NCBI GenBank assembly: GCA_964577595.1
Contig: CAZNZK010000005.1
Span: 10,885-74,884, forward strand
DNA: 64,000 nucleotides
Source of the DNA: an uncultured Candidatus Saccharibacteria bacterium
GTDB taxonomy: Bacteria; Patescibacteriota; Minisyncoccia; Phycocordibacterales; JAKAEA01
Direction: 5' to 3'
Shown here in pieces: positions 6,140 to 45,570 of the stretch. The position numbers were made by a program, and so were the translations under genes. Each line of letters opens with the position of its first letter. Within the stretch, counting starts at the first letter, position 1. The notes beneath the pieces were generated by a model. It did no database searches. It was not told the origin of the DNA and saw nothing but the letters and a program-made list of their open reading frames with translations.

Positions 6140-6148
6140 TAAACTCCC

Positions 6149-7267: not shown

Positions 7268-8280
7268 AGCTTCTCGTAATTACCCAGAAAATTGACGCTG
7301 ACGACGCGGGGCTCGGTTTTTTCTTCGGCTGGCTCAAGGCGCTGGCGGCTCAATGCGAGCAAGTGACGGCAATTTGCTTGGAACGCGGGGCGGGAAGCTT
7401 GCCCACCAATACCCGGGTTTTTTCGCTCGGCAAAGAAAGCCGGCCCAGCCGCTTTCTCTATGTGGTGAAATTTTACTGGTACATTGTGCGCGACTGGAAC
7501 AAGTACGACACCGTTTTTGTGCACATGAACGAGGAATATGTGTTGCTGGCCGGCTGGCTCTGGCGGCTTGGTGGCAAAAAGGTGACGCTCTGGCGCAACC
7601 ATGCTCGCGGCTCTTTCTTGACGCGCCTCGCGGTTTTTTTCTCCAATAAGGTTTTTTGCACATCCAAAAGCTCCTATACCGCCCGTTTTTCCAAAACCGT
7701 GCTCATGCCGGTGGGCGTGGATACTGACTTTTTCAAGCCTAACCCGGCCGTGGCAAAACCCGCCGGCTCGGTGCTTTTTCTCTCGCGCATTGCGCCAGTT
7801 AAAAAGCAGGACGTTTTTTTGCGGGCCATGGCAAAAATGCCCAGAGAACATTTTCAGGTGGATTTTTATGGCGATGCTCTGCCTAAAGACAAGCCCTATC
7901 ACGAGCTCTTGAGAGATATAGCGCGTGCGTTGAAATTGGAATCGGCAGTTTCTTTTTACTCTGGTGTGCCCAATACCCAAACGCCCACGCTCTACCATTC
8001 GCATCGGGTGTTTATCAACCTCACCCCGGCCGGCTCTTTTGATAAAACTATTGTGGAAGCGCTAGCCTGTGGCACTCTGGTGCTCACTACCAATACCGAC
8101 ATGCGCGACCAGTTGCCCGCCGCCTGCGTTGCCGACCAGGCAACTCTGCCCACCGCGCTTTCCGCGCTTTTGCATTTGTCGGAAACAGAATATGCCGAGC
8201 TCATTGGCTCATGCCAAAAATTCGTGGAGCACCATTCATTACGAAACTTAATCACGCGGTTACTAAAAGAGGTACAATAA
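7264..8280 (+). CDS. Glycosyltransferase family 4
   Basis: GT-B fold pattern with EALACGTLVLTT; ATG at 7264 overlaps the upstream stop by 4 nt. Confidence 0.7.
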   Translation: MKLLVITQKIDADDAGLGFFFGWLKALAAQCEQVTAICLERGAGSLPTNTRVFSLGKESRPSRFLYVVKFYWYIVRDWNKYDTVFVHMNEEYVLLAGWLWRLGGKKVTLWRNHARGSFLTRLAVFFSNKVFCTSKSSYTARFSKTVLMPVGVDTDFFKPNPAVAKPAGSVLFLSRIAPVKKQDVFLRAMAKMPREHFQVDFYGDALPKDKPYHELLRDIARALKLESAVSFYSGVPNTQTPTLYHSHRVFINLTPAGSFDKTIVEALACGTLVLTTNTDMRDQLPAACVADQATLPTALSALLHLSETEYAELIGSCQKFVEHHSLRNLITRLLKEVQ

Positions 8281-8285
8281 AACAT

Positions 8286-8696
8286 ATGTCCATTATTGCC
8301 CGATACATAGTTGCTGGAGTCGTTGGCGTGGCAGTAAACGTCGGCGTGCTCTACGGCCTCACGCGCTTTTTCGGCGTCTGGTATTTGGCCGCGTCTGTGG
8401 TCTCGTTTATTATTTCTTTGCTCGTTAGTTTTGCCCTGCAAAAAATGTGGACGTTTCAGGACAGGGGCATGGAGCTCGCCGGCCGGCAATTCCTCGTCTA
8501 CTTGGCCATTGCTCTTTTCAACCTCGGCCTCAATAGTCTCTGCATGTATTTCTTTACCAGTATTCTGGGAATATGGTATGTTATGTCACAACTGCTTTCT
8601 TCGGGCCTCATCGCCATTTCTAGTTTCTTTCTATATAGAGCATTTGTGTTTACTGCCGCCGCGCCCGTTCCAATGCCAACTAATCCACAATCATGA
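8286..8696 (+). CDS. GtrA-family membrane protein (glycan translocation/flippase accessory)
   Basis: MSIIARYIVAGVVGVAVNVGVLYGL...SLLVSFALQKMWTF is the typical GtrA signature; 4 TM. Confidence 0.75.
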   Translation: MSIIARYIVAGVVGVAVNVGVLYGLTRFFGVWYLAASVVSFIISLLVSFALQKMWTFQDRGMELAGRQFLVYLAIALFNLGLNSLCMYFFTSILGIWYVMSQLLSSGLIAISSFFLYRAFVFTAAAPVPMPTNPQS

Positions 8697-30677: not shown

Positions 30678-30678
30678 C

Positions 30679-31032
30679 ATGCGCGTTCAAAAGGAAATTG
30701 TCGGTATTGGTACCGATATTGTGGAAATTGAGCGCCTGCGCAATGCGCGGGAATTGAAGCGCGCCGCCGATTTCTTTTTCCTACCAAGCGAATTGCGCGA
30801 TATGAAAAAAAGCCGCAACCAAGCTGAGTTTGTGGCCTCCCGCCTAGCCGCCAAAGAAGCAGTCATTAAGGCCTATCCAGGAACAATTCATTATCACGAC
30901 ATCGCCATAACCAAACGCGGCAAAAAAATCATCGCAAAATTAGTTCGTCCCGCCGACAAAAAATTTACGGTTTTTGTCAGTATTGCTCATGAAAAAAAAT
31001 ATGCACTCGGCTATGCAATTTTATGTACGTAG
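30679..31032 (+). CDS. acpS: Holo-[acyl-carrier-protein] synthase (4'-phosphopantetheinyl transferase)
   Basis: IVGIGTDIVEIERL and LAAKEAVIKA motifs; 117 aa. Confidence 0.8.
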   Translation: MRVQKEIVGIGTDIVEIERLRNARELKRAADFFFLPSELRDMKKSRNQAEFVASRLAAKEAVIKAYPGTIHYHDIAITKRGKKIIAKLVRPADKKFTVFVSIAHEKKYALGYAILCT

Positions 31033-31121
31033 GCTTGCAGAATTAAGGGTTTTTAGCTGAAGCTGTTGTGGGTAAGTCATATGTTGTTTTTTGTTATCAG
31101 TAGTTGTATAGTCGACTATGA

Positions 31122-31430
31122 ATGTTGCATATGAATTCCTTTAATCAACAATCTCGCATACCCCGGTGGCTACGCATCACTGGAACTATCCTTGAGATGA
31201 TGCTCATCTATGTCGCATGCTTCCCGTTTTCTATCGGCGTGGCAATATTCTTAGCGTGGATTGGAGGCCAACGCGGAATCTATGTGTTTGGACTTGTTCC
31301 GTTACCCGGCTTTTTTCTTGGAGGCCCTCTTGTGATTGAGTGCCTGATTTTTATTTTTCATAAACCATCAAGACAATGGTTAAGAAAGCGTTTTTCTCGT
31401 GATCCACTACCACCTCTGTCGAGTACTTAA
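31122..31430 (+). CDS. Small hypothetical membrane protein
   Basis: Three TM helices; 102 aa. Confidence 0.35.
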   Translation: MLHMNSFNQQSRIPRWLRITGTILEMMLIYVACFPFSIGVAIFLAWIGGQRGIYVFGLVPLPGFFLGGPLVIECLIFIFHKPSRQWLRKRFSRDPLPPLSST

Positions 31431-31474
31431 TTTAGTACATTGTTATTCGTTCTAGAATTGAGTATTGTTTGCCC

Positions 31475-33154
31475 ATGAACGTCTTGGAATATCTTAAAAA
31501 AGCATCTGAACATAAGAAAAGTTCACTCATAGGTGCAGAAATGCGCATCGCTATCGTCAGTAATTTTACCGACGACATTTTGGAGAAAATTTTTGTGGGT
31601 ATGTGCCTCACGGAAAACATTCAGCCCGATATTTTTCGCGTGCCATTCAAACAGTATCTTTTTCAGTTACAAGATTCAACTTCCGCTTTGGCCAAACACA
31701 AGGCCCAGGCCACATTTGTCTTCTTTGACGTTAACCCCTATTTAGAATCGGAATTCACTTCTGATCTGAATCATATTGATGAAATAATCGCCGATTTGGA
31801 GCGTTTTGCCACAGCCAGTGCGGGAAGCGTAATCCTGCACACTATCGCTTTGCCCACCAGCCTCCAGCATGGCCGACTTTTCCGCGAGCATCCGCTCCAA
31901 GCCGCAATTAACCGCTACAATTCGGCGATTAAAAAGCTTGCCGAAAAATCTTCAAATGTTTTCATTATTGAAACCGAACGTTTGGTGGCCGCAATGGGGG
32001 AGAGCAAGGCTCGCGACATGCGCGGGCTTTATGCCTTTGGCCAGCCGTTTAGTCACGAATATCTGCTTCGTGTCGCGCAGGAATGGATGGCCTACGTGCG
32101 CTCGCTCGCCGGCAAAATCCGCAAATGCATCGTGGTTGATTTGGACAACACTCTTTGGGGCGGTATTGTGGGCGAGGTGGGGCCGCTTGAAATAAAACTT
32201 GGGCCCGATTACCCGGGCAATGCCTACCGCGAATTTCAGCGCGTTTTGTTGGACTATTATAACCACGGCATTATTTTGGCCGCCAATAGTCGCAACAATG
32301 CCGCCGACGTTGACGAAGTTTTTGAGAAAAATCCGTACATGATTTTGAAAAAGTCGCATTTTGCCGCTTTTCTCACGAATTGGAAAACCAAGCCGGAAAA
32401 TTTGCGCACTATTGCCGAAGACCTCAATATCGGCCTAGATAGTATCGTTTTTCTTGATGACGACCCCGTCAACCGCGACATGGTTAAAACGCAGTTGCCC
32501 GAAGTGCTGGTACCCGATTTTTCCCTGCCGCCGGAGGAATATGCACGCACCCTTTTAGATTTGGACGCTTTTCACACCCTCAAAATGACCACCGAGGATA
32601 AAGAGCGCGGCAAAATGTACGCCGCCGAGCGCGAGCGAAAGGTTGCTGAAAAGGAAACGCAAAATCCTGAGGAGTATATAAAAACCCTCAATATAAAGAT
32701 GGATTTTTCCTGTAACGACATTGCGCTCATTCCGCGCCTCGCCCAGCTCACCCAGAAAACCAATCAGTTTAACTTGACCACCTGCCGCTCCACCGAAGCC
32801 GAGCTTACCGAGTGGATTAAGAACGGCGCGCTCATTTACGCTGGCGATATTAAAGATAAATTTGGTCCGTATGGCATCACAGTTATGGCGGCCATTAAAC
32901 CGACGAGTAAAACTGAAGCCGACCTGGCCATTTTCCTGATGAGTTGCCGCGTCTTTGGCCGGAACATAGAATTTGATTTTATGAAAAAGATTTTGGCCGA
33001 CCTCAAAGAGCGTGGCTTCAAAAAGCTAACCACTCACTTCATTCCCACCGCCAAAAACGCGCCGTCAAAGGAGTTTCTTAAGACCGCAGGTTTCAAGGAA
33101 GTTGAGCGAAAAAATTCTGGTGAAGTTGTTTGTGAAATTAATGTAAAATCTTAG
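31475..33154 (+). CDS. FkbH-like HAD-IIIC family protein (phosphatase/acyl-carrier loading enzyme)
   Basis: IVVDLDNTLWGG, ANSRNN...FAAFLTNWKTKPENL and IVFLDDDPVNRDMV match the HAD-IIIC/FkbH signature (TIGR01681/01686-like); ~560 aa as in FkbH/OzmB-type proteins. ATG at 31475 (TTG at 31469). Confidence 0.7.
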   Translation: MNVLEYLKKASEHKKSSLIGAEMRIAIVSNFTDDILEKIFVGMCLTENIQPDIFRVPFKQYLFQLQDSTSALAKHKAQATFVFFDVNPYLESEFTSDLNHIDEIIADLERFATASAGSVILHTIALPTSLQHGRLFREHPLQAAINRYNSAIKKLAEKSSNVFIIETERLVAAMGESKARDMRGLYAFGQPFSHEYLLRVAQEWMAYVRSLAGKIRKCIVVDLDNTLWGGIVGEVGPLEIKLGPDYPGNAYREFQRVLLDYYNHGIILAANSRNNAADVDEVFEKNPYMILKKSHFAAFLTNWKTKPENLRTIAEDLNIGLDSIVFLDDDPVNRDMVKTQLPEVLVPDFSLPPEEYARTLLDLDAFHTLKMTTEDKERGKMYAAERERKVAEKETQNPEEYIKTLNIKMDFSCNDIALIPRLAQLTQKTNQFNLTTCRSTEAELTEWIKNGALIYAGDIKDKFGPYGITVMAAIKPTSKTEADLAIFLMSCRVFGRNIEFDFMKKILADLKERGFKKLTTHFIPTAKNAPSKEFLKTAGFKEVERKNSGEVVCEINVKS

Positions 33155-33659
33155 AATAGTTGAATTTCTTTAATTGACCCTCAATATCAGTATATTTTTT
33201 ACCGCAGAGCATCCCTCCGGCGATAAAATCTTCCTGGGTGACTTCCGCCAAAACCCATAATGGTGCGACAAATTTCTTCTTCTCTTTGTTGGATTTGAAT
33301 TCAACATCAATTAAAATCAGACCTTGTAAATCTCCCTGAAACACATCAATCTCGTACACATATCCGTTTTCTTTATAAAGATATCGATTTTTTACAACCC
33401 TTTTTCCTTTCAGCATACTCAATTCCTTAAACTCTTCTTTGGTAAGTGGTATTGTCATTTCCAGCTGATACGAAGAATCCCCGTTCTTAATCGGCTGTTT
33501 CTTAGTCATTTCATATTTTTCACCCGATCGTCTTATTCGCAATGTGGGGTGTTTCGCTGTTGAGGGGATGTATATGTCCAACATTGCTTTGAAAGGGGCG
33601 TCTTTCAGTTTTTGTACAACTTCTTTCTTTGCCAAATATGTCAGTTCAAATTCTTCCAT
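33138..33659 (-). CDS. CYTH-like domain protein
   Basis: N-terminal ExExxY pattern and a 173-aa length consistent with the CYTH fold; weak assignment. Confidence 0.4.
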   Translation of the reverse strand: MEEFELTYLAKKEVVQKLKDAPFKAMLDIYIPSTAKHPTLRIRRSGEKYEMTKKQPIKNGDSSYQLEMTIPLTKEEFKELSMLKGKRVVKNRYLYKENGYVYEIDVFQGDLQGLILIDVEFKSNKEKKKFVAPLWVLAEVTQEDFIAGGMLCGKKYTDIEGQLKKFNYSKILH

Positions 33660-33673
33660 AGAAAAAGCATATC

Positions 33674-34324
33674 TTAAATTAGTCGCTCCGTATAGCCCTG
33701 TGCGAGCAAGTATTCATAGGCGGCCCAAACGTCACTGGGAATACTCTGCTCTATTTGAAAGCCTTTCTTGGGATATTCTTTGATGCGTTGAAGATCGCCG
33801 ACCATGGTGTTGATTACGTTATTTTTGTCCCGGCCTTCTATTGGGTAGTCGTGAAATGAAATTTGTGGTGACGTTACCAAGAGCTCAACATCGGGCAACC
33901 ATACTTTACCAGTCGCATATGTTCTGCGTTCCATATATGGTTTCTGTACCAGAATCATTCTTTTAGGCTCAATGCCGTGTTCGTGCAGTTTCTTAATGGC
34001 AAATTCATAATTTTGACCTGTGTTTTGTGATTGATTTTCAATAATGAGCGCTTCTTTTGGCACGCCTATTTTTATGGCAATATTCGCAAACACTTCAGCC
34101 TCAGTACTTCCCGCAAATTGTTCTCGGCCGGGCTTGTGGTTGTGGATGGATCCGGAACCGGCACACAACAGTACCGGTGCCCAGCCGTCTAAATAGAGTT
34201 GGGCCGCACACTCAGCGACGCGCGTATCTCTGTTGCCTAAAACAAAAATGACATCAGACTTTTTCAGCTCGTGATGCATGAGCATGTAATCCCAAATTTT
34301 TTGTGCGGCGGTGTCAGTGGTCAT
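33674..34324 (-). CDS. DUF218/YdcF (ElyC-like) family protein
   Basis: VIFVLGNRD...LLCAGSGS...IIENQSQNTGQN conserved DUF218 core; ATGA overlap with the downstream hydrolase gene. Confidence 0.6.
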   Translation of the reverse strand: MTTDTAAQKIWDYMLMHHELKKSDVIFVLGNRDTRVAECAAQLYLDGWAPVLLCAGSGSIHNHKPGREQFAGSTEAEVFANIAIKIGVPKEALIIENQSQNTGQNYEFAIKKLHEHGIEPKRMILVQKPYMERRTYATGKVWLPDVELLVTSPQISFHDYPIEGRDKNNVINTMVGDLQRIKEYPKKGFQIEQSIPSDVWAAYEYLLAQGYTERLI

Positions 34325-34920
34325 AAGTTTTGTATATCCTCCACCAATTCCGGAAGGTGCGTTTGATTAAAGTGTCCGCGATCTGTAAAAACCCATTCTT
34401 TCGCAGAAGGGAGGGCGTGTTTGTATTTTTCTAGATTCGAAAACGGGACAACGTTGTCGTCTTTACTTTGATAGATGAAAATCTTTCCGCCTTGCTTCTC
34501 TAGGCCGGCAAGCGATTGGGGAAGGCTAAAATCGGCTAGCGTGTAATCAGTTCCGGAGGTATCAAACGGGGCCGCAATCAAGAAAGTGGCCCGTATCTTT
34601 TTTGGATAGGTATTTTCAGAAAAATATTTTGCCAGGAATATGCCGCCGAGGGAATGGCCCACAAACACGACTTCTTCGTCCAAAAAGGGAATGATTTTTT
34701 CAAACCATATTTTCCACTCGCTGTATTTCGCGTTAGCTTGGTTGGGCATTTTGGGGAGAACTACCCGGAACTCGCTACCTAGTTCCTGTTCAAGGTTTTC
34801 TTTCCAGCCCCTCCGCAACATTTTACTGAAATCAATAATAAACGATTTTAGCGACGCAATATATTCTGTATAGGTATTGAAGGTGTCGCCTCCGTGAATT
34901 ATTACTACTTGTTTTTTCAT
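34321..34920 (-). CDS. Alpha/beta-fold serine hydrolase (YdeN/RBBP9-like esterase)
   Basis: VVFVGHSLGG nucleophile elbow; ~200 aa. Confidence 0.6.
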   Translation of the reverse strand: MKKQVVIIHGGDTFNTYTEYIASLKSFIIDFSKMLRRGWKENLEQELGSEFRVVLPKMPNQANAKYSEWKIWFEKIIPFLDEEVVFVGHSLGGIFLAKYFSENTYPKKIRATFLIAAPFDTSGTDYTLADFSLPQSLAGLEKQGGKIFIYQSKDDNVVPFSNLEKYKHALPSAKEWVFTDRGHFNQTHLPELVEDIQNL

Positions 34921-34985
34921 GACCAAAATATAACACGTTTTTAAGGAACTATGCAGCTAATAATATTCAATGTTATAGTAGTTCT

Positions 34986-35222
34986 ATGAGCAAATTAACT
35001 CACATTTTCTCCTCGGTTTTGGGCGTAGATGAGGCAAAAGTGGTACCGGACATGGCGCCGGCAAATACAAGCTCGTGGGATTCATTGAATGCTATTATTT
35101 TGCTGACGGAAATTGAAAAGGCATTTGAGACGCGTTTTGAATATGAAGAGGCGATGAATATTAAGAATTTTGGCGATGTGTTGAAATTGGTGGCGGGGAA
35201 GGGGAAAGATCCGCAGGCTTAA
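34986..35222 (+). CDS. DltC-like acyl/peptidyl carrier protein
   Basis: 78 aa; SSWDSLNAIILLTEIEKAF with the DSL phosphopantetheine-attachment serine; resembles D-alanyl carrier proteins. Confidence 0.7.
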   Translation: MSKLTHIFSSVLGVDEAKVVPDMAPANTSSWDSLNAIILLTEIEKAFETRFEYEEAMNIKNFGDVLKLVAGKGKDPQA

Positions 35223-35296: not shown

Positions 35297-36757
35297 ATGA
35301 AACACATCCATACTGACACGCTGATTATTGGTGCGGGGCCAGCCGGCCTGGCGGCGGCCATAAAATTAGCCGAGGCCGGTAAAGATTTCGTTATTATTGA
35401 AAAGAGTGATATGGTCGGCGGTTTGGCAAAAACTCGCACGTTTGTCGAGGGCGATGACGTTTTTCTAACCGATCAGGGTCCGCATCGTTTTTTTTCAAAA
35501 AATCCCGAGCTCTATCATTTCATTGAAGACCTCTTGCAGGAGCGTTGGATTAAGGTGAAGCGTTATACTCGCCAGTATATTGCCGGCAAGTTCTACGACT
35601 ATCCGCTCAAGCCGTTTCAGGCTTTAAAAAATATCGGCCCATGGAAGGCGGCCGGTATGCTCTACGATTACGCCGTGGCGACGGTACGCTACAAACTACT
35701 TGGCCGTCCACTCGCAACTTTTGCCGATTATGTGTATGCAAATTTTGGAAAATCGCTTGGTAAATTTTGCATGATAAATTACACCGAGAAAATTTGGGGA
35801 TTGCCCGCCGAAAAAATTCACCCTGACTGGGCATCCCAGCGTCTTAAGGGTCTCAGTGTTTATGGCCTTCTGAAAGACTTTTTAAGAATTTCGCGAAAAA
35901 AGGACGGCCCCAAATCGCTCATTGACACTTTTTATTATCCTGAACGGGGTGCTGGTGAGGTGTATGAAGCTATTCAAAAAAAGCTGGAGGCCCTTGGGTA
36001 TACAGTGCTAACAAAAACGCAACCAACAAAAATATTCCACGAGAATAATAAAATCACCGCTGCCCTCTGCCAGTCGCCCGAGGGCGAAATACGCTTCACA
36101 TTCAATCATCTTATAGAGTCGGTACCCATAAAAAATTTTGTTACTCTTTTTGAAAAAACGGCCGTACGTCACGTATCCGAAAGTATGCGAAATCTCTCGT
36201 ACCGCCACCAGGTATACCTATTCATAACGCTCAATAAGCCCAAGGTTACCGACGATCAGTGGATCTATTTCCCCGAAACACATATTCCGATAGGTCGGAT
36301 GAGTGAGATGAAAAATTTTAGCCAAGCTATGGCTCCAGCCGATAAAACTTCTCTTTTTTTGGAATTTTTTTGCTCAACCAATGATGCTGTTTGGAAGATG
36401 GGCCCAACTGAGGTTTTTGAACTGGCCGTTCCCTGGCTTGAGCAAATGGGGTTTGTTACCCGCACGGAAGTGAGGCGCTCATATGTTTTCAAAGAAGAGA
36501 ATGTGTATCCAGTATACGACCTGGGTTATAAGAAACACCTGGAAGAAATTAAGAATTTTTTAAACAAATTTAACAATCTCTTATATGTCGGCCGACCGGG
36601 CCGTTTTAAGTATAATAATCAGGACCATTCTCTGGAAATGGGTTTCTTGGCGGCCCAAAGTATTATTGATGGGCATCCTTACGACATTGAAGCGGTTGGT
36701 GAGGATAAAAAACATTATGAGTCGGGAACAATATATGACAAAAGAACAACGCATTGA
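35297..36757 (+). CDS. FAD-dependent oxidoreductase (amine-oxidase-like fold)
   Basis: LIIGAGPAGLAAAIKLAEAGKDFVIIEKSDMVGGLA dinucleotide-binding motif. Confidence 0.6.
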   Translation: MKHIHTDTLIIGAGPAGLAAAIKLAEAGKDFVIIEKSDMVGGLAKTRTFVEGDDVFLTDQGPHRFFSKNPELYHFIEDLLQERWIKVKRYTRQYIAGKFYDYPLKPFQALKNIGPWKAAGMLYDYAVATVRYKLLGRPLATFADYVYANFGKSLGKFCMINYTEKIWGLPAEKIHPDWASQRLKGLSVYGLLKDFLRISRKKDGPKSLIDTFYYPERGAGEVYEAIQKKLEALGYTVLTKTQPTKIFHENNKITAALCQSPEGEIRFTFNHLIESVPIKNFVTLFEKTAVRHVSESMRNLSYRHQVYLFITLNKPKVTDDQWIYFPETHIPIGRMSEMKNFSQAMAPADKTSLFLEFFCSTNDAVWKMGPTEVFELAVPWLEQMGFVTRTEVRRSYVFKEENVYPVYDLGYKKHLEEIKNFLNKFNNLLYVGRPGRFKYNNQDHSLEMGFLAAQSIIDGHPYDIEAVGEDKKHYESGTIYDKRTTH

Positions 36758-38093
36758 GTTTTGGTATGGCGCGGCTATTGTAGTGCTCGCATGTGTCTAT
36801 ATTTTCTGCTGGTTCTGTACAATCTATCTTGCTACCGGCCGAGAACAGCAACAAAGCGGTAGCGGTTTACTTGTCTTGGAAGTCAATGGCGACAGCCGCC
36901 AATACGTGGCCTTGGCCCACTCGCTCCTCACGAGCCATACATTTCCTGCGACCAACCACTCGCCAACACCGTTCGTGCCGGAAACATTCCGTGTACCGGG
37001 GTACCCTCTTTTTGTTGCCATTTTCTCATTATTTGGAAAAGTTTTTTTTGTCACCACTCTCGTCCAAATCATCCTGGCTTTCTGTACGGCTTTTTTAATA
37101 CGTCGATTGGGTTGTTTTTTCTTTTCCGACACTGTTGGTTGTGTCGCCGCTGTTCTCTTTCTTCTTGACCCTACAACCCTACTTCTCTCGCTTGCACTAT
37201 TGTCTGACATGTTATTTGTATTTCTGTTCATTGCTGGCTTCTATTTGCTTGTCAGTAGACTCCATAAAAAACCGCTTTTGGTAACAGTATCTGCTGGCCT
37301 CATTTTTTCCTACGCGGTGTGTGTGCGGCCGGTTGGCTTATTTGCCTTACCGATTTTTTTCGCGCCAGTGTTTATAAGCAAGGCTTCTTTGCGGCATAAA
37401 ATATATTCCGCTATAGGCATATTGGTCATTATTACTGCTGCTGTCGCGCCATGGATGTGGCGCAACTATAAAGAAGCTGGCGCGTTCACGTTCAGTTCTC
37501 TTCCTGCCTACAACATTGCCAAATACAATATTCCAATTTTTCTGGCAACACGGGGAGTAACGGCCGAAGAGAGCCGGGCTCTTGTTGAAAAAAAATCTGG
37601 CGTTTCTCCTGATCGTTGGCGCGATGTGGAAGCGTCGGCGGCTCTTAATAAGGCATCAAGGAACATTCTCGGGCATCAATTGCTTTCCTATGTGGTTTTT
37701 CATATAGAAGGCTCCGTTATCGCCAGCCTCTCTTCCTCGTTAAATACATTCATCAGTACCTATAACACTATTGTTCCAATTTCCATCGATACATCTCCCA
37801 TAAAACTTTCTGATCTTTTAATCAGCTGGAAACAAAGCGTGTTTATTTTTGGCCACTTTTGGTGGCGTTTTGTCGAGGGGTTTATGTGGGCAGGCGCATT
37901 TGCCTGCGCTGGGGTAGCCTTTTGGATACATCGTCGATATCTCTTTTCGTGGGCGTTTGTTCTTATCGTCGTATATATCTTATTACTTATTGGTCCGGTT
38001 GTTGATGTGCGCTATCGCACGCCCGCTGTCCCTTTCATATTCCTTATGGCGGTCGCGGGTGCCGGCTGGCTTAGGAAACGTTTGTTCGATTGA
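36717..38093 (+). CDS. GT-C family membrane glycosyltransferase (ArnT/PMT, COG1807-like)
   Basis: N-terminal D..Y...A...PGYPLF loop pattern of GT39/83 enzymes; ~11 TM. Start 36717 or 36735; the ORF-track extension to 36585 overlaps the previous gene. Confidence 0.5.
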   Translation: MSREQYMTKEQRIEFWYGAAIVVLACVYIFCWFCTIYLATGREQQQSGSGLLVLEVNGDSRQYVALAHSLLTSHTFPATNHSPTPFVPETFRVPGYPLFVAIFSLFGKVFFVTTLVQIILAFCTAFLIRRLGCFFFSDTVGCVAAVLFLLDPTTLLLSLALLSDMLFVFLFIAGFYLLVSRLHKKPLLVTVSAGLIFSYAVCVRPVGLFALPIFFAPVFISKASLRHKIYSAIGILVIITAAVAPWMWRNYKEAGAFTFSSLPAYNIAKYNIPIFLATRGVTAEESRALVEKKSGVSPDRWRDVEASAALNKASRNILGHQLLSYVVFHIEGSVIASLSSSLNTFISTYNTIVPISIDTSPIKLSDLLISWKQSVFIFGHFWWRFVEGFMWAGAFACAGVAFWIHRRYLFSWAFVLIVVYILLLIGPVVDVRYRTPAVPFIFLMAVAGAGWLRKRLFD

Positions 38094-38131
38094 TTTCTCT
38101 CATAAAAAAGTGTTTAATGGAGGTGCTTTGT

Positions 38132-38542
38132 ATGTCTAAAATCGGCGCAAAAATTGGTGATAGTGCAGAATTTTCTGTCGAAGTTACTGCCGATATGGTG
38201 GACGCTTTTGCGAAGCTTTCGGGGGATATGAACGCTTTGCATATGGATGAAAAGTTTGCGCAGAGCAAGAAATTTGAAGGCCGAGTGGCGCATGGCATGC
38301 TTGGTGCCAGCTTTTTCTCGCGGCTGGTGGGCATGCATTTGCCGGGGAAAAATTCACTCTATCTTTCACAGTCACTTTTTTTTCGCCGGCCTATATATAT
38401 AGGAATGAAGGTGACCGTAAAAGGTGTAGTGATGCAAACGACGACAGCGACGCGGACGGTCAAAATAAAAACGGAGATACTTAATAGCGCCAATGCGGAG
38501 TGCTTGCTGGACGGCGAGGCGCTTGTTAAAGTGCTGGAATAG
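38132..38542 (+). CDS. MaoC-like (R)-specific dehydratase, hotdog fold
   Basis: FAKLSGDMNALHMDEKFA and RVAHGMLGASF motifs; strong GGAGG RBS 9 nt upstream. Confidence 0.7.
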   Translation: MSKIGAKIGDSAEFSVEVTADMVDAFAKLSGDMNALHMDEKFAQSKKFEGRVAHGMLGASFFSRLVGMHLPGKNSLYLSQSLFFRRPIYIGMKVTVKGVVMQTTTATRTVKIKTEILNSANAECLLDGEALVKVLE

Positions 38543-38562: not shown

Positions 38563-40044
38563 ATGCTCTTTAACTCCTTTTCCTTCCTTATATTTTTCCC
38601 GATAGTGGTAGTGCTTTACTACAGCATTCCGCGGCGGTTCCGAGTGTATTTTTTGTTGCTTGCGAGCTGTATTTTCTATATGGCTTTTGTGCCGTGGTAT
38701 ATCCTTATTTTGTTCTTTCTTATCGGTATTGATTTTTTCCTCGGGCAGGCCATTGAAAAGCGCACGGGCCATGCGCGGCGGGTATTGCTTGTAGTGAGTG
38801 TTATTTCCAACCTCGGTACGCTTTTTGTTTTTAAATATTTGAATTTTTTTGATGCAAATATTGCAGCGTTGGCGCATGCGTTGCATTGGAATTATTCCTT
38901 GCCGCTTTTGTCGCTGGTGGTGCCGCTTGGCCTTTCATTCCACGTGTTCCAGAGCTTGAGTTATGTGATTGAGGTTTACAGGGGCAAGTGGAAAGCGGAG
39001 CGGAACTTTTTCGTGTATGCGCTCTACGTGATGTTCTTTCCGCAATTGGTGGCGGGCCCTATTGAGCGGCCGCAACATCTTTTGCCGCAGTTTCGGGCGG
39101 AACACCAGTGGCGCGACGAAAATGCAATTACTGGCTTGGAGCGTATGCTCTGGGGATTTTTCAAGAAGATGGTGATTGCGGATAACTTAGCACCGATTGT
39201 TGATCATATTTTTGGCACGGTGCCACATAATGGGCCGGTACTTATTTTGGGAGTAGTGCTCTTTACCTATCAGCTTTACTGCGATTTCTCGGGCTATTCG
39301 GACATTGCCGTGGGCACGGCGCGAGTTTTGGGTTTTGAAATTATGGAAAACTTTAATAGGCCGTTTGCGGCGCGCTCCATTGCAGACTTTTGGCGGCGCT
39401 GGCACATTTCGCTTTCAAGCTGGCTTCGCGATTATTTATTTACCCCGCTTTTGTGGCTGTGGCGCGGTGCCGGGCAACTAGGTTTTTATGCGAGTTTGCT
39501 GGTAACATTCACGCTTATTGGCCTGTGGCATGGTGCGAACTGGACGTATGTGGTTTTCGGCGCATTGCATGGAGCATATATGGTGATTGGCGCGGCGACG
39601 CAAAAATGGCGCAACCGTTTTGCGGAACTTATTGGCCTGGTGCGGCTTCCGCGCCTTCGCGCGGCTTTGCAAACGCTGACGGTATTTGCGCTGGTATGTT
39701 TCAGTACGCTCTTTTTCCGGGCTGACACTATTGGCCAAGCATTCACTATGCTCGCACATATGGCCGATCATTTAGCGCAGGCGTTTAGCGTGAGTTTTTG
39801 GTGGCGGGAGGCGCCGGGCTTAATGGGGCTTTCGGCCCGCGGGGCAAAGGTGTATTTGTTTCTACTCATTTTAGCTATTATCGGCATGGAGGTTCTGCAG
39901 TATTTTCAGGAAAAGAAGGCGACGCTTTTAGTGTGGGCAAAATGGCCGAGCTGGGGGCGCATCAGCTGGCGCTATGCGGCGCTGGCGGCCATTGTCTTTT
40001 TCGGCTACCTGGGTGCGACGCCGTTTATCTATTTTAAGTTTTAG
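38563..40044 (+). CDS. MBOAT family membrane-bound O-acyltransferase (DltB/AlgI-like)
   Basis: FWRRWHISLSSWLRDYLF conserved-His motif; ~11 TM; 493 aa. Confidence 0.8.
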   Translation: MLFNSFSFLIFFPIVVVLYYSIPRRFRVYFLLLASCIFYMAFVPWYILILFFLIGIDFFLGQAIEKRTGHARRVLLVVSVISNLGTLFVFKYLNFFDANIAALAHALHWNYSLPLLSLVVPLGLSFHVFQSLSYVIEVYRGKWKAERNFFVYALYVMFFPQLVAGPIERPQHLLPQFRAEHQWRDENAITGLERMLWGFFKKMVIADNLAPIVDHIFGTVPHNGPVLILGVVLFTYQLYCDFSGYSDIAVGTARVLGFEIMENFNRPFAARSIADFWRRWHISLSSWLRDYLFTPLLWLWRGAGQLGFYASLLVTFTLIGLWHGANWTYVVFGALHGAYMVIGAATQKWRNRFAELIGLVRLPRLRAALQTLTVFALVCFSTLFFRADTIGQAFTMLAHMADHLAQAFSVSFWWREAPGLMGLSARGAKVYLFLLILAIIGMEVLQYFQEKKATLLVWAKWPSWGRISWRYAALAAIVFFGYLGATPFIYFKF

Positions 40045-40070: not shown

Positions 40071-41213
40071 ATGTGGAAATTCCTGCTCAAATTTATTCTC
40101 TATATAGGCGTGCCGGTGGTGCTGGTGCTGGCGTTTCCACTCTATGTATATTGGCAGGCGCGTGAGTTCACGAGCGTGCATGACGCCATTACCACCCAGG
40201 CCGCTTCCAGCTCAGCGCTTTTTGGCATTGGCTACGACTATGCCAGCCGGGCATATAAAGAGGCGATGCTTGCCGAGAAGCCGGCCGATGTGGTAATTCT
40301 CGGCTCGTCGCGCGTGCTTGAGTTGCACCAACTGTTTTTTGCCTCGTCTACCAGGTTGGTGAATGCTGGCCTCGGACTGCCCGACATGTCTCGTTTGCCG
40401 GCTCTGCTTAATGACCACCCGGCAGGAAGCGAGCCGAAAGTGATTTTATTGGGAATTGACCCGTGGATGTTTAAGCCGGGGGAGGAAACGGTCAATATTC
40501 CCCAACAGGTGACGCTTGGTGACAGGCTCTGGGCTTTTGTGAGTGGCGCCTGGCGCACGGTGTATTCCGACTATTTTCTTTTCCATAAATTTGGCTTGGG
40601 CCAACTTGCCGCCGCCAGAAGCACGTCGTCTTCTATTGGCATTAATGCGCTTATTAACGATGAAGGATTTATGGCCGATGGCAGTGAACTCTATGGCCGA
40701 CGGGGCGAGCTTGAGAATTATGTGAATGTTGTGGCGCCGCAGGCTATAGAGCAAATGCGGGCATCGGTTGCCAGCGACCGGGCCGATTTTGATTTTGGTA
40801 CGAGCACGTCGGCGGCAAGCCTTCGCGAGTTAAATATCTTTTTGGCCACTGCCGAGGCGCGCGGCATTCATGTTGTTGGTTTTATTACGCCGTATCCACA
40901 TGCGGTTTTCCAGCAATTAATGAGCGTGCATGATAGTTATGCGCAAGAGGCGGTGCTTTTGCCAGCCGTGCTCAATGCGTTTTTCACTCATTACAATTTT
41001 CCATTCTTTAATTATATGGATGCGGCCAGCGCCGGCATTCCAGATAGCGAATTTTTGGACTTTCAGCACGTCACCGACAAAGGCGCTTTGCGGATACTTA
41101 TTGCTATGGCGCAAGGCGACAGCACGTTACGCGCATACGTTTCCCTGCCGAATTTAAAATCGCTCTTAGCTCACACCCCCGACGCTTTTATTGATCCAGC
41201 CGATTTAAAGTGA
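40071..41213 (+). CDS. DltD-like SGNH-type protein partner of MBOAT
   Basis: N-terminal anchor, VVILGSSRVLEL (DltD LGSSE-like) and C-terminal DFQHVTDKG (DxxH). Confidence 0.55.
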   Translation: MWKFLLKFILYIGVPVVLVLAFPLYVYWQAREFTSVHDAITTQAASSSALFGIGYDYASRAYKEAMLAEKPADVVILGSSRVLELHQLFFASSTRLVNAGLGLPDMSRLPALLNDHPAGSEPKVILLGIDPWMFKPGEETVNIPQQVTLGDRLWAFVSGAWRTVYSDYFLFHKFGLGQLAAARSTSSSIGINALINDEGFMADGSELYGRRGELENYVNVVAPQAIEQMRASVASDRADFDFGTSTSAASLRELNIFLATAEARGIHVVGFITPYPHAVFQQLMSVHDSYAQEAVLLPAVLNAFFTHYNFPFFNYMDAASAGIPDSEFLDFQHVTDKGALRILIAMAQGDSTLRAYVSLPNLKSLLAHTPDAFIDPADLK

Positions 41214-42163
41214 GTGGCAATGCTACGAATAATAGCGTCTAAGGATGTTTTTGGTTTCCAGCCGGTTAAAGCTTGGATGCGGGCGGTGTCGGGCACTCGC
41301 CGCGTCATATCTTCAAAACCTGGCCCGTAGGCTTCTCCATAGGGAACGGTAATAATTTTTGAGCGGCTCTTGAGTTGTTTTTTTATCCGTAACGCCAATT
41401 CCATTATGGTAATTTCTTCCTGACTGCCAATGTTATAGAGCGTGCCAATCGCGTCTGTTTTAGTTAACAGACTTTTAAGAGCTTTTACGACGTCGTTGAC
41501 GTCACAAAAACAGCGCGACTGTGTGCCGTCGCCATACACCGTAATGTCCTCGTTTTTAAGGGCTTGAGAGATGAAACGTGGCATCACCATGCCATATTGG
41601 CCGCTTTGGCGTGGTCCGACAGTATTGAAAAGCCGTACCAAAATAACGGGTAAATCGTACTGGTGGTGATAGGCTAGGGCGAGAAACTCATCAACCATTT
41701 TAGTGGCGGCGTAGGCCCAGCGGGATTTATTAGTGGTGCCCAAAACAACATCATCTTTTTCATTGTAGGGGATGCGGGTGCTTTTTCCATAGACTTCAGA
41801 GGTGCTGGCGACTAAAGTTTTACAGCGATAGCGCAGAGCTGTTTTGAGAACCGCTTCAGTGCCCATGATATTTGTTTCAATAGTGTGTACTGGCTGGTCA
41901 ACGATAAGCTTGACGCCAACAGCCGCGGCTAAGTGGATAACAGTATCAACTTGGCTCATAAGGCGATCCAACACGGTTTCGTTACGGATATCGGCAATGG
42001 CATAACTGAAATTCTTGTTGGAAATGAGGTGCGCGATATTGCGCATACTGCCAGTGGAAAGATTGTCTATGATGGAAACGGCGATGCCGTCCTTTAAAAG
42101 CGATTCGGCCAGATGGCTGCCGATAAAACCGGCGCCACCCGTAATGAGAATTTTTTTAGGCAT
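41171..42163 (-). CDS. NAD-dependent epimerase/dehydratase (SDR, UDP-sugar decarboxylase/epimerase-like)
   Basis: ILITGGAGFIGSHL and YAATK motifs; ATG at 42163. Confidence 0.7.
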   Translation of the reverse strand: MPKKILITGGAGFIGSHLAESLLKDGIAVSIIDNLSTGSMRNIAHLISNKNFSYAIADIRNETVLDRLMSQVDTVIHLAAAVGVKLIVDQPVHTIETNIMGTEAVLKTALRYRCKTLVASTSEVYGKSTRIPYNEKDDVVLGTTNKSRWAYAATKMVDEFLALAYHHQYDLPVILVRLFNTVGPRQSGQYGMVMPRFISQALKNEDITVYGDGTQSRCFCDVNDVVKALKSLLTKTDAIGTLYNIGSQEEITIMELALRIKKQLKSRSKIITVPYGEAYGPGFEDMTRRVPDTARIQALTGWKPKTSLDAIIRSIATHFKSAGSIKASGV

Positions 42164-45565: not shown

Positions 45566-45570
45566 GTTTT

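What the first reader, a model, noticed from the sequence alone, without database searches (positions are those of the whole stretch)
35297..38542. Tailoring genes between carrier and MBOAT: FAD oxidoreductase, GT-C transferase and MaoC dehydratase
Between the DltC-like carrier and the MBOAT lie three genes: an FAD-dependent oxidoreductase, an ArnT/PMT-like GT-C membrane glycosyltransferase and a MaoC hotdog dehydratase with a strong RBS.

Inference: a MaoC dehydratase acting on a carrier-bound 2,3-dihydroxyacyl (glyceryl) thioester would give an enol/2-oxo product. The carrier-bound group may therefore be modified before transfer. The GT-C enzyme may build or decorate the periplasmic acceptor.
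Basis: inference. Interest (0 to 1): 0.6.

Follow-up and report, generated by a model that had tools for sequence, protein, structure and literature searches.

The report
Glycan acylation operon with inserted genes
The three genes are real, but only the small dehydratase belongs to the acyl-carrier system, as part of a loader–carrier–dehydratase cassette conserved across bacteria and archaea; the flavoenzyme and the membrane glycosyltransferase are a separate sugar-transfer pair inserted into this operon.

Summary
All three genes exist at the stated coordinates. They are packed into one + strand run: carrier, FAD protein, GT-C, MaoC, MBOAT, then a 380-aa membrane-anchored protein. They are not one set of tailoring genes.

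**MaoC is a core member of the carrier system.**
- Its relatives were sampled in 80 species genomes. 59 lie within 5 kb of an FkbH-like loader, including all 18 with at least 47% identity.
- The usual gene order is FkbH, ACP, MaoC, SDR. In 14 loci MaoC and the SDR are fused into one protein.
- An MBOAT follows in about a quarter of the loci.
- Best reading (inferred): FkbH makes glyceryl-S-carrier and MaoC dehydrates it to enol/pyruvoyl-S-carrier. An SDR, where present, reduces that to lactyl. The MBOAT and its partner then put the acyl group on a surface glycan. The window's cassette has no SDR.

**The FAD protein and GT-C are a separate pair.**
- Neither is linked to the cassette: FAD 0 of 80 loci, GT-C no more than a weak hit in 2 of 80.
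- Both are missing from a 13-gene syntenic relative, where ACP directly precedes MaoC.
- The FAD protein resembles UDP-galactopyranose mutase, not a dehydrogenase. Elsewhere its family sits beside, or is fused to, GtrA and polytopic GT-C-like proteins.

Grouping all three genes as tailoring enzymes is not.

The parts
30679..31032 (+). Holo-ACP synthase (4'-phosphopantetheinyl transferase). First gene of the conserved cassette.
   Evidence: Pfam ACPS E 2e-10. TIGR00556 57.5 bits against a cut-off of 45. An ACPS precedes FkbH in L002, L004, L006 and others.
31469..33154 (+). FkbH-like loader (HAD phosphatase plus acyl-enzyme domain). Presumed to make glyceryl-S-ACP from 1,3-bisphosphoglycerate.
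   Evidence: TIGR01686 FkbH 281.9 bits against a cut-off of 146.65. D224/D226, K308, D330/D331 and S492-C493-R494 are at least 95% conserved among 49 homologues. PDB 3slr E 7e-46.
34986..35222 (+). Acyl carrier protein (78 aa, DSL phosphopantetheine site).
   Evidence: PP-binding E 6e-5. Matches generic ACP models only. 83% identical to the ACP that directly precedes MaoC in L002.
35297..36757 (+). UDP-galactopyranose-mutase-like FAD protein (PRK07208.1-4 family). Not part of the carrier cassette.
   Evidence: Best PDB match is 4dsg, a UDP-galactopyranose mutase, E 7.5e-25 over residues 8-456. Found in 0 of 80 MaoC loci. Relatives lie next to GtrA and GT-C genes.
36717..38093 (+). GT-C fold membrane glycosyltransferase (PMT_2/ArnT-like). 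Its start overlaps the FAD gene.
   Evidence: PMT_2 E 3e-4, below threshold. AlphaFold model pLDDT 79 with GT-C-fold top hits. D59 and the R-x-P-G-Y-P motif are invariant in 6 homologues. Homologous to the FAD-adjacent PMT_2 protein of L089, E 6e-20.
38132..38542 (+). MaoC/PhaJ-type hotdog dehydratase. Core member of the FkbH-ACP cassette.
   Evidence: MaoC_dehydratas E 6.6e-18. PDB 1iq6, (R)-specific enoyl-CoA hydratase, E 1.4e-23. D32 and H37 invariant. Co-occurrence statistics. MaoC-SDR fusions.
38563..40044 (+). DltB/AlgI-type MBOAT.
   Evidence: MBOAT E 2.4e-27. TIGR04091 DltB 170 bits, below its 375-bit cut-off. 76% identical to the L002 orthologue.
40071..41213 (+). 380-aa protein with a predicted N-terminal membrane helix. 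Presumed SGNH/DltD-like extracytoplasmic partner of the MBOAT (inference).
   Evidence: Conserved downstream of, or beside, the MBOAT in L002, L004, L006, L010, L049, and beside the cassette in L048. Invariant G-x-S-R serine and a D/E-x-x-H motif. Two family members give weak DUF1574 hits (best E 2.6e-4) and two give weak Lipase_GDSL hits (best E 0.043). No DltD model hit. Structure model failed.
8211..8696 (+). GtrA-family protein, the only one found in the window. Possible distant partner of the FAD/GT-C pair (uncertain).
   Evidence: GtrA_DPMS_TM E 1.2e-22. Homologous to the GtrA genes that directly precede FAD homologues in L088, L153 and L156.

Best explanation
The interval holds parts of two different systems that share one operon.

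**(1) MaoC and the acyl-donor cassette.** MaoC (38132-38542) belongs to a conserved cassette: ACPS, FkbH-like loader, ACP, MaoC, with or without an SDR. In this lineage the cassette feeds an MBOAT and a membrane-anchored SGNH-like partner.
- Shown: this gene linkage.
- Inferred mechanism: FkbH loads a glyceryl unit from 1,3-bisphosphoglycerate onto the holo-carrier. MaoC removes water across C2-C3, giving 2-hydroxyacryloyl (enol), which tautomerises to pyruvoyl-S-carrier. In most relatives an adjacent or fused SDR would reduce this to lactyl-S-carrier.
- The window, like L002, L004, L019 and L030, lacks that SDR. It either delivers the 2-oxo/enol acyl group or uses a reductase encoded elsewhere.
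- The MBOAT passes the acyl group across the membrane and the 380-aa protein esterifies a surface glycan. This is Dlt-like logic with an FkbH loader in place of an adenylating enzyme.

**(2) The FAD protein and GT-C.** These two genes (35297-36757 and 36717-38093) are a translationally overlapping pair present here between ACP and MaoC and absent at that junction in relatives.
- The FAD protein is a UDP-galactopyranose-mutase-like flavoenzyme. Its family normally sits beside, or is fused to, GtrA and next to polytopic GT-C-like proteins.
- The pair most likely belongs to a GtrA/GT-C-type extracytoplasmic glycosylation route. The flavoenzyme would prepare the donor sugar, possibly as a furanose, and the GT-C would transfer it from a polyprenyl-phosphate carrier.
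- It does not act on the carrier-bound acyl group.
For: **MaoC and the cassette**
- The closest relatives lie in the order ACPS, FkbH, ACP, MaoC, MBOAT, ~385-aa protein (L002, L004) or with an SDR between MaoC and MBOAT (L006).
- Among 80 species-level loci, FkbH lies within 5 kb in 59. That includes 18 of 18 loci with at least 47% MaoC identity. An SDR lies within 5 kb in 46, and an MBOAT in 20.
- 14 loci encode MaoC-SDR fusion proteins.
- Catalytic D32 and H37 are invariant. The best solved relative is PhaJ, 1iq6.
- FkbH catalytic motifs are conserved.
- Precedent: PKS loading modules that take 1,3-bisphosphoglycerate-derived starters produce a 2-methoxyacrylyl unit (PMC6174933).
- From my own knowledge, not retrieved here: the FR901464 loading module converts glyceryl-ACP to pyruvoyl-ACP and then lactyl-ACP with a DH and a KR (He et al., Angew Chem 2014).
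- MBOAT-SGNH pairs are the general route for polymer acylation (PMC12148441).

**FAD protein and GT-C**
- FAD is found in 0 of 80 MaoC loci. GT-C gives weak hits in 2 of 80 loci, only one within 5 kb of MaoC.
- 13 genes are collinear with L002 at 59-83% amino-acid identity, and L002 lacks exactly the FAD/GT-C pair at the ACP-MaoC junction.
- The non-syntenic genes have lower GC3, mean about 0.45 against about 0.53.
- The FAD protein matches UDP-galactopyranose mutase over its full length. It keeps the histidine loop, R334, Y404, R433, Y439 and N441-Q-D-H.
- GtrA lies directly upstream of FAD homologues in L088, L153 and L156. FAD-GtrA fusions exist: P0126, P0165, P0176, P0209. A polytopic or PMT_2-like protein lies beside the FAD gene in all 7 contexts examined.
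- None of those contexts has FkbH or an MBOAT.
Against: - No biochemistry exists for any member, so the substrate of FkbH, the product of MaoC and the acceptor are all inferred.
- MaoC/PhaJ enzymes normally act on 3-hydroxyacyl thioesters without a 2-hydroxyl. Use of an ACP rather than CoA thioester is not shown.
- The window's cassette has no SDR. A pyruvoyl (alpha-keto) ester on a glycan would be chemically labile and unusual.
- 21 of 80 MaoC relatives lack FkbH. Some of these loci are short. The Bacillaceae group shares a different, conserved context, and in the one scanned (L022) an AMP-binding enzyme precedes MaoC.
- The FAD protein lacks the arginine of the UGM 'MRPYNFKVW' segment (it has MINYTEKIW). 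It scores far below the UGM equivalog cut-off (59.7 against 303.75 bits), so mutase activity is uncertain.
- The tight packing, including the overlap with the FAD gene and 38 nt to MaoC, means the pair is almost certainly co-transcribed with the acylation genes. A functional link, for example GT-C building the acceptor, cannot be excluded.
- Only 7 FAD contexts were examined.
- The SGNH assignment of the 380-aa protein rests on motifs and weak hits.
Confidence: 0.6

Rival explanations
1. One reading: all three genes tailor the carrier-bound group or its acceptor as one unit. The FAD enzyme would be the redox partner of MaoC, for example replacing the SDR that relatives carry by reducing or oxidising the C3 acyl-S-carrier.
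For: The genes lie between ACP and MBOAT with overlapping or very short spacers. The window's cassette lacks the SDR found in most relatives, so a reductase slot is open.
Against: - The collinear relative L002, and also L004, L019 and L030, lack both the SDR and the FAD protein.
- FAD homologues occur in 0 of 80 cassettes.
- The FAD protein's nearest solved relatives are UDP-galactopyranose mutases, and it keeps their sugar-binding residues.
- Its family, at 55-61% identity, sits with GtrA and GT-C genes away from any FkbH or MBOAT.
Confidence: 0.08
2. The two modules are evolutionarily separate but functionally coupled here. The GT-C, with a donor prepared by the flavoenzyme, adds the side-chain sugar that the MBOAT and its partner then acylate. 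The insertion would create a new 'glycosylate then acylate' decoration.
For: One tightly packed operon. Both reactions are extracytoplasmic modifications of a finished polymer. The cluster also has an ABC-transporter export route (Wzm/Wzt-like genes at 44342-46398). GT-C side-chain systems are modular and are gained and lost readily (PMC11127046).
Against: There is no recurrence of this combination in 80 cassettes or 7 FAD contexts. Co-location may simply reflect insertion into a permissive operon. L002 acylates, presumably, without these genes.
Confidence: 0.22
3. MaoC is an ordinary (R)-specific enoyl-CoA hydratase of lipid or PHA metabolism that merely lies in this operon.
For: The best solved relatives are PhaJ enzymes. 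21 of 80 relatives have no FkbH nearby. The Bacillaceae group shares a different conserved context, and the one scanned (L022) has an AMP-binding enzyme before MaoC.
Against: 18 of 18 closest relatives, and 59 of 80 overall, are adjacent to FkbH and ACP across Patescibacteria, Thaumarchaeota, Acidobacteria and others. There are 14 fusions to the cassette SDR. Patescibacteria-type genomes generally lack fatty-acid and PHA pathways (general knowledge).
Confidence: 0.05
4. The cassette's FkbH-like enzyme loads something other than glycerate. MaoC with or without the SDR would then process a different hydroxyacyl-S-carrier, for example a C4 unit.
For: No member of this glycan-associated FkbH clade has been assayed. 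The Pfam FkbH_N match is weak (E 8.7e-6). The solved relative 3slr is annotated only as 'uncharacterized protein BF1531'.
Against: TIGR01686 scores well above its cut-off. The HAD phosphatase motifs and the S-C-R cysteine are conserved. To my knowledge all characterised FkbH-family members use 1,3-bisphosphoglycerate.
Confidence: 0.12

Closest known systems
Dlt D-alanylation pathway (DltA/DltC/DltB/DltD) and other MBOAT-SGNH polymer acylation systems (PatA/PatB, AlgI/AlgJ/AlgX)
   Same: A small carrier protein, a DltB-type MBOAT (170 bits to the DltB model) and a membrane-anchored downstream protein with a Ser and D/E-x-x-H motif, in one operon inside a surface-glycan cluster. The general MBOAT-SGNH logic is described in PMC12148441.
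   Different: - There is no adenylating DltA; the loader is an FkbH-type phosphatase/acyl-enzyme.
- The acyl group is a C3 hydroxy/oxo acid, not D-alanine or acetate.
- An on-carrier dehydratase, with or without a reductase, is interposed.
- The MBOAT is below the DltB equivalog cut-off.
- The carrier does not match DltC models.
- The partner protein does not match DltD models.
FkbH/OzmB-type glyceryl-ACP formation, and PKS loading modules FkbH-ACP-DH(-KR or -OMT) that make lactyl or 2-methoxyacrylyl starters (FR901464, phormidolide, oocydin)
   Same: An FkbH loader, a carrier, a dehydratase, and optionally a ketoreductase, acting on a 1,3-bisphosphoglycerate-derived unit. PMC6174933 was retrieved here; He et al. 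2014 is from my own knowledge.
   Different: - These are stand-alone proteins, not PKS domains.
- The dehydratase is a single-hotdog MaoC/PhaJ type, not a PKS double-hotdog DH.
- The product is handed to glycan acyltransferases (MBOAT, or GNAT/NAT types in other phyla), not to a ketosynthase.
(R)-specific enoyl-CoA hydratase PhaJ (PDB 1iq6, 5cpg)
   Same: Same length and fold family, E 1.4e-23. The Asp/His catalytic pair is conserved.
   Different: The genomic context points to an ACP-bound C3 2,3-dihydroxyacyl substrate rather than medium-chain enoyl-CoA. It has not been assayed.
Eukaryote-type UDP-galactopyranose mutase (T. cruzi 4dsg, A. fumigatus 3ute)
   Same: Full-length similarity (E 7.5e-25). 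Conserved features are the histidine loop, the R-x-S/T-x-x-x-N-(F/Y)-S arginine, Y-P, G-R-x-G, Y and N-Q-D-H-S motifs.
   Different: - It scores only 59.7 bits against the bacterial UGM equivalog (cut-off 303.75).
- The histidine loop reads G-P-H rather than G-G-H.
- It lacks the Arg of the M-R-P-Y-N segment.
- It belongs to the uncharacterised PRK07208.1-4 family.
- It is often fused to, or adjacent to, GtrA.
Three-component extracytoplasmic glycosylation (GtrA/GtrB/Gtr* GT-C); mycobacterial Rv3789-DprE1/E2-AftA; pentofuranose systems (PMC11127046)
   Same: GtrA-family protein, a donor-modifying enzyme and a GT-C transferase as neighbours in relatives (L088, L153, L156, L160). The GT-C fold of the window protein is confirmed.
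   Different: - The donor-modifying enzyme is a UGM-like flavoprotein. The retrieved paper's text contains no mention of FAD, flavin, mutase or oxidoreductase.
- In the window, GtrA is 27 kb away.
- No polyprenyl-phosphate sugar synthase has been assigned.

Membership tests
MaoC/PhaJ (R)-hydratase/dehydratase hotdog family | MaoC_dehydratas domain above the Pfam threshold | tested here: met
   64.9 bits against a cut-off of 27. PDB 1iq6 E 1.4e-23.
MaoC/PhaJ (R)-hydratase/dehydratase hotdog family | Catalytic Asp and His in the G-D-x-N-P-x-H motif | tested here: met
   D32 and H37 are invariant in 29 sequences. The window protein reads GDMNALH.
MaoC/PhaJ (R)-hydratase/dehydratase hotdog family | Activity on 3-hydroxyacyl or enoyl thioesters (CoA or ACP) | not testable with these tools
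   Only genomic linkage to FkbH and ACP is available.
FkbH family (glyceryl-ACP forming) | TIGR01686 FkbH domain above the cut-off | tested here: met
   281.9 bits against 146.65.
FkbH family (glyceryl-ACP forming) | HAD D-x-D nucleophile motif and a conserved C-terminal cysteine (S-C-R) | tested here: met
   D224, D226 and S492-C493-R494 are at least 95% conserved in 49 homologues.
FkbH family (glyceryl-ACP forming) | Uses 1,3-bisphosphoglycerate to give glyceryl-S-ACP | not testable with these tools
   Inferred from characterised family members.
Dlt pathway | DltA-type adenylating (AMP-binding) loader | tested here: not met
   No AMP-binding domain in any gene between 25.7 and 46.4 kb. The loader is FkbH.
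Dlt pathway | DltB equivalog | tested here: not met
   TIGR04091 170.5 bits against a cut-off of 375. MBOAT family membership is met, 96.6 bits against 27.
Dlt pathway | DltD partner protein | tested here: inconclusive
   - No DltD model hit.
- Weak DUF1574 and Lipase_GDSL hits in family members.
- Conserved Ser and D/E-x-x-H.
- A profile search against the PDB was empty.
- The single-sequence model failed, pLDDT 37.
UDP-galactopyranose mutase | Equivalog-level match (TIGR00031) | tested here: not met
   59.7 bits against a cut-off of 303.75, covering the N-terminal part only.
UDP-galactopyranose mutase | Full-length fold-level similarity and substrate-site residues | tested here: inconclusive
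   4dsg E 7.5e-25 over residues 8-456. The His loop, R334, Y404, R433, Y439 and N441 are conserved. One diphosphate-binding Arg is replaced.
GT-C glycosyltransferases (PMT_2/ArnT-like) | Pfam PMT_2 above threshold | tested here: not met
   About 21 bits against a cut-off of 26.1. Homologues P0243-P0246 and L089_445 do pass.
GT-C glycosyltransferases (PMT_2/ArnT-like) | GT-C fold | tested here: met
   Model pLDDT 79.4, pTM 0.84. The top Foldseek PDB matches are AglB, ArnT, STT3, PglB, ALG3/9/12, Pmt4, Emb and PimE, with probability up to 1.00.
GT-C glycosyltransferases (PMT_2/ArnT-like) | Acidic residue in the first extracytoplasmic loop | tested here: met
   D59 is invariant. In the model it lies just after the first transmembrane helix. 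Only 6 sequences were available.
Gtr-type three-component glycosylation | GtrA-family protein and a polyprenyl-phosphate sugar synthase beside the GT-C | tested here: inconclusive
   GtrA is adjacent to, or fused with, the FAD protein in relatives. In the window the only GtrA is at 8211-8696. The role of the GT2 gene at 42156-43106 is unknown.

The most novel reading that the evidence does not exclude
The window carries two systems that the literature searched here does not describe.

(a) A stand-alone FkbH, ACP, MaoC (with or without SDR) pathway that is widespread in Bacteria and Archaea. It would make C3 2-oxo or 2-hydroxy acyl donors (pyruvoyl or lactyl) for glycan decoration. In Patescibacteria it would be exported through an MBOAT and its partner, giving a Dlt-like route with no adenylating enzyme. 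Elsewhere it would hand the acyl group to GNAT/NAT N-acyltransferases next to NeuB-type genes. The SDR-less form found here would deliver a pyruvoyl/enol ester.

(b) A GtrA, UGM-like flavoenzyme and GT-C module that would be a new hexofuranose-type 'three-component' glycosylation system. The flavoenzyme might act on a lipid-linked sugar.
Probability: 0.3. Interest if true: 0.75.

Novelty: new variant of a known kind. Interest (0 to 1): 0.58.

Why it matters
**The acylation route.**
- Polymer acylation through MBOAT-SGNH pairs is known for acetyl and D-alanyl groups.
- How other short acyl decorations are activated and exported is largely unknown. Examples are lactyl, glyceroyl and pyruvoyl esters and amides on capsules, O-antigens and nonulosonic acids.
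- A conserved loader, carrier, dehydratase and reductase cassette found in many phyla, including ultra-small Patescibacteria and Thaumarchaeota, gives a directly testable route. Four small soluble proteins can be reconstituted and read out by mass shifts on the carrier.
- It also gives a genomic marker for predicting such decorations.

**The flavoenzyme family.**
- The UGM-like flavoenzyme family that travels with GtrA and GT-C is large, highly conserved and unannotated.
- It may extend the recently generalised 'three-component' periplasmic glycosylation concept.

**Annotation.** The result warns against reading every gene inside a tight operon as one pathway.

Tried and rejected
- **Metagenome scan with the FAD alignment.** The degenerate patterns hit generic GAGPAG dinucleotide-binding motifs. 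Only 3 of 63 loci were real relatives, so FAD contexts had to come from 7 exact-protein look-ups instead.
- **Promoter and terminator scan of 30.5-42.5 kb.** Counts did not differ from shuffled sequence, so it gives no evidence about transcription units. The operon inference rests on spacing only.
- **The 380-aa protein.** A profile search of its family against PDB sequences found nothing. A single-sequence AlphaFold model gave pLDDT 37 and was unusable. Its SGNH/DltD-like nature therefore stays an inference.
- **Search for the cassette SDR in the window.** Nothing was found; the best hit had E 0.18.
- **GT-C homologue search.** It returned only 5 relatives because the family is fast-evolving. 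No statistics were possible from that side.
- **Literature searches.** FkbH+MBOAT, FkbH+lactyl, glyceryl-ACP+pyruvoyl, FkbH+DltB/DltD and PRK07208 found no description of either module. The nearest finds were:
  - the fkbH-domain gene cj1302 in the Campylobacter jejuni flagellar glycosylation locus (PMC7099621);
  - PKS loading modules (PMC6174933).
- **Rejected: the FAD protein as a replacement for the SDR.** See the first rival explanation.
- **Rejected: the carrier as a true DltC.** It gives only generic ACP hits.

Full report
**Observation**

The interval 35297-38542 contains three + strand genes.

- **FAD protein (35297-36757, 486 aa).** It matches Amino_oxidase (E 1.5e-17) and NAD_binding_8, and has a partial GLF match. 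It passes the NCBIfam model PRK07208.1-4, named only 'hypothetical protein', at 407 bits against a cut-off of 389.
- **GT-C (likely start 36717 or 36735, end 38093).** The start overlaps the FAD gene by 41 or 23 nt. The PMT_2 match is sub-threshold, E about 3e-4 and 21 bits against 26.1.
- **MaoC (38132-38542, 136 aa).** MaoC_dehydratas E 6.6e-18. GGAGG lies 8 nt upstream of the ATG.

The flanking genes are a 78-aa PP-binding carrier (34986-35222), a DltB-like MBOAT (38563-40044) and a 380-aa protein with a predicted N-terminal membrane helix (40071-41213). Spacers are 74, -41, 38, 20 and 26 nt. A consensus promoter/terminator scan was no better than shuffled sequence. Co-transcription is therefore inferred from spacing only.

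Upstream lies a second + strand run: GT4, GT4-like, ACPS, a 102-aa membrane protein and an FkbH-like gene (28382-33154). FkbH scores 282 bits on TIGR01686 against a cut-off of 147. Three minus-strand genes (CYTH, DUF218, alpha/beta hydrolase) separate this run from the carrier.

Because the Pfam evidence for the GT-C was weak, I modelled it with its five detectable homologues. The model has pLDDT 79.4 and pTM 0.84. Its Foldseek matches in the PDB are essentially all GT-C-fold enzymes, including AglB, ArnT, STT3, PglB, ALG3/9/12, Pmt4, EmbA/B and PimE. D59, just after the first transmembrane helix, and an R-x-P-G-Y-P motif are invariant.

**MaoC belongs to a conserved cassette**

Homologues at 50-61% identity come mostly from Patescibacteria. 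Three look-ups showed the same neighbourhood.
- L002 and L004: ACPS, FkbH, ACP, MaoC, MBOAT, ~385-aa protein.
- L006: the same, with an SDR between MaoC and the MBOAT.

A scan of one genome per species returned 80 loci. They come from Patescibacteria, Thaumarchaeota, Nano- and Woesearchaeota, Acidobacteriota, Omnitrophota, Firmicutes and others. tblastn with the window's proteins gave these counts:

| Gene | Loci with a hit within 5 kb of MaoC (of 80) |
|---|---|
| FkbH | 59 (18 of 18 with at least 47% MaoC identity) |
| SDR | 46 |
| ACP | 39 |
| MBOAT | 20 |
| FAD protein | 0 |
| GT-C | 1 (weak; 2 of 80 anywhere in the locus) |

- The commonest order is FkbH, ACP, MaoC, SDR.
- In 14 loci MaoC and the SDR are one polypeptide. 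This is strong evidence that the two act consecutively.
- The MaoC family keeps the hydratase Asp/His pair, D32 and H37. Its best solved relative is PhaJ, 1iq6, E 1.4e-23.
- The FkbH homologues keep the HAD D-x-D motif and an S-C-R cysteine.
- Where no MBOAT is present, the cassette is followed by GNAT-type or aminoglycoside-N-acetyltransferase-type acyltransferases. It lies next to NeuB or NDP-hexose dehydratase genes. It therefore looks like a general supplier of an acyl donor for glycans.
- A group of Bacillaceae relatives (39-46% identity) shares a different conserved context without FkbH. In the one scanned, L022, an AMP-binding enzyme precedes MaoC.

**Mechanism (inferred)**

1. FkbH-family enzymes convert 1,3-bisphosphoglycerate to glyceryl-S-carrier.
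2. A PhaJ-type dehydratase removing the C3 hydroxyl and the C2 proton would give 2-hydroxyacryloyl-S-carrier, which tautomerises to pyruvoyl-S-carrier.
3. The SDR would reduce this to lactyl-S-carrier.

The same chemical logic is known in PKS loading modules that take 1,3-bisphosphoglycerate-derived starters, for example the 2-methoxyacrylyl starter (PMC6174933). From my own knowledge, the FR901464 loading module makes lactyl-ACP through pyruvoyl-ACP (He et al. 2014; not retrieved here).

The MBOAT and the downstream protein would then esterify a surface polymer, as in MBOAT-SGNH systems (PMC12148441). That protein has an invariant G-x-S-R serine and a D/E-x-x-H motif, and family members give weak DUF1574 and GDSL hits.

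The window, like L002, L004, L019 and L030, has MaoC directly followed by the MBOAT with no SDR. There is no SDR homologue anywhere in the 64 kb. In this variant the transferred group may be the 2-oxo/enol form, or a reductase may be encoded elsewhere. This is unresolved.

**The FAD protein and GT-C are a different module**

- The window is collinear with L002 over 13 genes at 59-83% amino-acid identity. The collinear block runs from the first GT4 gene to the Wzy/TPR gene.
- The genes present only in the window are the 102-aa protein, the CYTH/DUF218/hydrolase trio, the FAD/GT-C pair and an epimerase. In L002 the ACP stop codon is 5 nt from the MaoC start.
- These window-only genes have lower GC3, mean about 0.45 against about 0.53. 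This is weakly consistent with later acquisition.
- The FAD protein's best solved relatives are eukaryote-type UDP-galactopyranose mutases: 4dsg at E 7.5e-25 over residues 8-456, and 3ute and others at about 1e-20.
- The alignment conserves the histidine loop (G-P-H here), the Arg of the 'R-x-S-x-x-x-N-F-S' segment, Y-P, G-R-P-G, Y and N-Q-D-H-S. The Arg of the UGM 'M-R-P-Y-N' segment is not conserved. The protein falls far short of the UGM equivalog model.
- Its family is very large and conserved, at 53-61% identity across Patescibacteria, Nanoarchaeota and the actinobacterium Microlunatus. Several members are fused to a GtrA domain.

Contexts of FAD homologues:

| Locus | Arrangement |
|---|---|
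| L088 (Microlunatus) | GtrA, FAD, 481-aa polytopic protein, epimerase |
| L153-155 | GtrA, FAD, 374-aa PMT_2-like protein |
| L156 | GtrA, FAD, DUF1761, 500-aa polytopic protein |
| L089 | a second FAD paralogue followed by a 445-aa PMT_2 protein homologous to the window's GT-C (E 6e-20) |
| L158 | FAD convergent with a PMT_2-like protein |
| L160 | FAD-GtrA fusion, then a 574-aa protein, then a PMT_2/GT9 protein |

None of these contexts has FkbH or an MBOAT. The window GT-C's best homologue (33% identity) lies in a cluster with GtrA, a GT2 gene and another PMT_2 protein, and no FAD gene.

This pattern matches the GtrA/GT-C 'three-component' logic for extracytoplasmic glycosylation reviewed in PMC11127046. 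That paper's text contains no mention of FAD, flavin, mutase or oxidoreductase.

I infer that the flavoenzyme prepares the donor sugar, possibly as a furanose, for a GT-C. Confidence is low.

- The MaoC inference, dehydration of a carrier-bound glyceryl unit to an enol/2-oxo product, is the best-supported reading. It is now backed by comparative genomics.
Their orthologues consistently occur in other contexts.
- A local functional link, with the GT-C adding the residue that is then acylated, remains possible.

**Novelty**

Searches of the held literature found no description of an FkbH-ACP-MaoC cassette coupled to an MBOAT, nor of the PRK07208/GtrA/GT-C module. The nearest hint is an fkbH-domain gene in the Campylobacter flagellar glycosylation locus (PMC7099621).

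I rate this a new variant of known kinds. One kind is Dlt-like/MBOAT-SGNH acylation; the other is three-component glycosylation. Interest is moderate to good. The cassette is widespread, small and directly testable by mass shifts on the carrier.

Noticed in passing
window 25734-28346 (-): An 870-aa protein. The N-terminal ~540 aa are a GMC-type flavin oxidoreductase (GMC_oxred_C E 8e-25, pyranose-oxidase-like). The C-terminal ~330 aa have no family match. It is absent from the syntenic relative L002.
   Followed up: partly
window 5144-8696 (+): The run is a UDP-glucose dehydrogenase-like gene, a 372-aa polytopic protein (6149-7267), a GT4 gene and GtrA (8211-8696). The 372-aa protein is homologous (E 1e-8) to the PMT_2-like protein that sits beside the FAD homologue in L158. 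The run resembles the L153 module 'GtrA, FAD, small GT-C, UDPG-dehydrogenase' without the FAD gene.
   Followed up: partly
window 33138-34926 (-): A CYTH / DUF218 / alpha-beta-hydrolase trio on the opposite strand splits the FkbH gene from its carrier gene. It is absent in L002. The CYTH gene has very low GC3 (0.39).
   Followed up: partly
window 31122-31430 (+): A 102-aa predicted membrane protein with no family match lies between ACPS and FkbH. It is absent from L002. A role in the acylation system, such as a DltX-like helper, was not examined.
   Followed up: no
L027 9953-11161, and L026, L028, L033, L036, L040, L046, L052, L055, L056, L058, L065, L072, L080: MaoC-SDR fusion proteins of 393-506 aa. 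In L027 the fusion lies next to FkbH, ACP, a GNAT-type acyltransferase and a NeuB-type nonulosonic acid synthase. This suggests N-acylation of amino or nonulosonic sugars with the same C3 unit.
   Followed up: partly
L011, L012, L018, L020 (Nitrososphaeria / Nitrosopumilales): The archaeal version of the cassette has the order FkbH, ACP, MaoC, ACPS, with no SDR or MBOAT detected. In L011 it lies next to a GT4 gene and an NDP-hexose 2,3-dehydratase.
   Followed up: partly
L022-L024, L032, L035, L041, L075 (Ornithinibacillus, Paucisalibacillus, Virgibacillus): MaoC relatives at 39-46% identity lie in a different conserved operon without FkbH. In L022, the one scanned, a ~500-aa AMP-binding enzyme precedes MaoC. 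This may be an adenylation-loaded analogue of the cassette.
   Followed up: partly
P0126, P0165, P0176, P0209; L160 6001-7851: The UGM-like flavoprotein is fused to a C-terminal GtrA transmembrane domain (616-633 aa). This implies that the enzyme works at the membrane, possibly on lipid-linked sugars.
   Followed up: partly
window 41171-41213: The 3' ends of the 380-aa gene (+) and the NAD-dependent epimerase/dehydratase gene (-) overlap convergently by 43 nt. The epimerase gene is absent from L002.
   Followed up: no
L004 7672-9126 (-): In the Kaiserbacteria SDR-less cassette, a B12-binding radical SAM enzyme lies immediately downstream of the ~382-aa partner gene, on the opposite strand. Whether it acts on the acyl group is unknown.
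   Followed up: no
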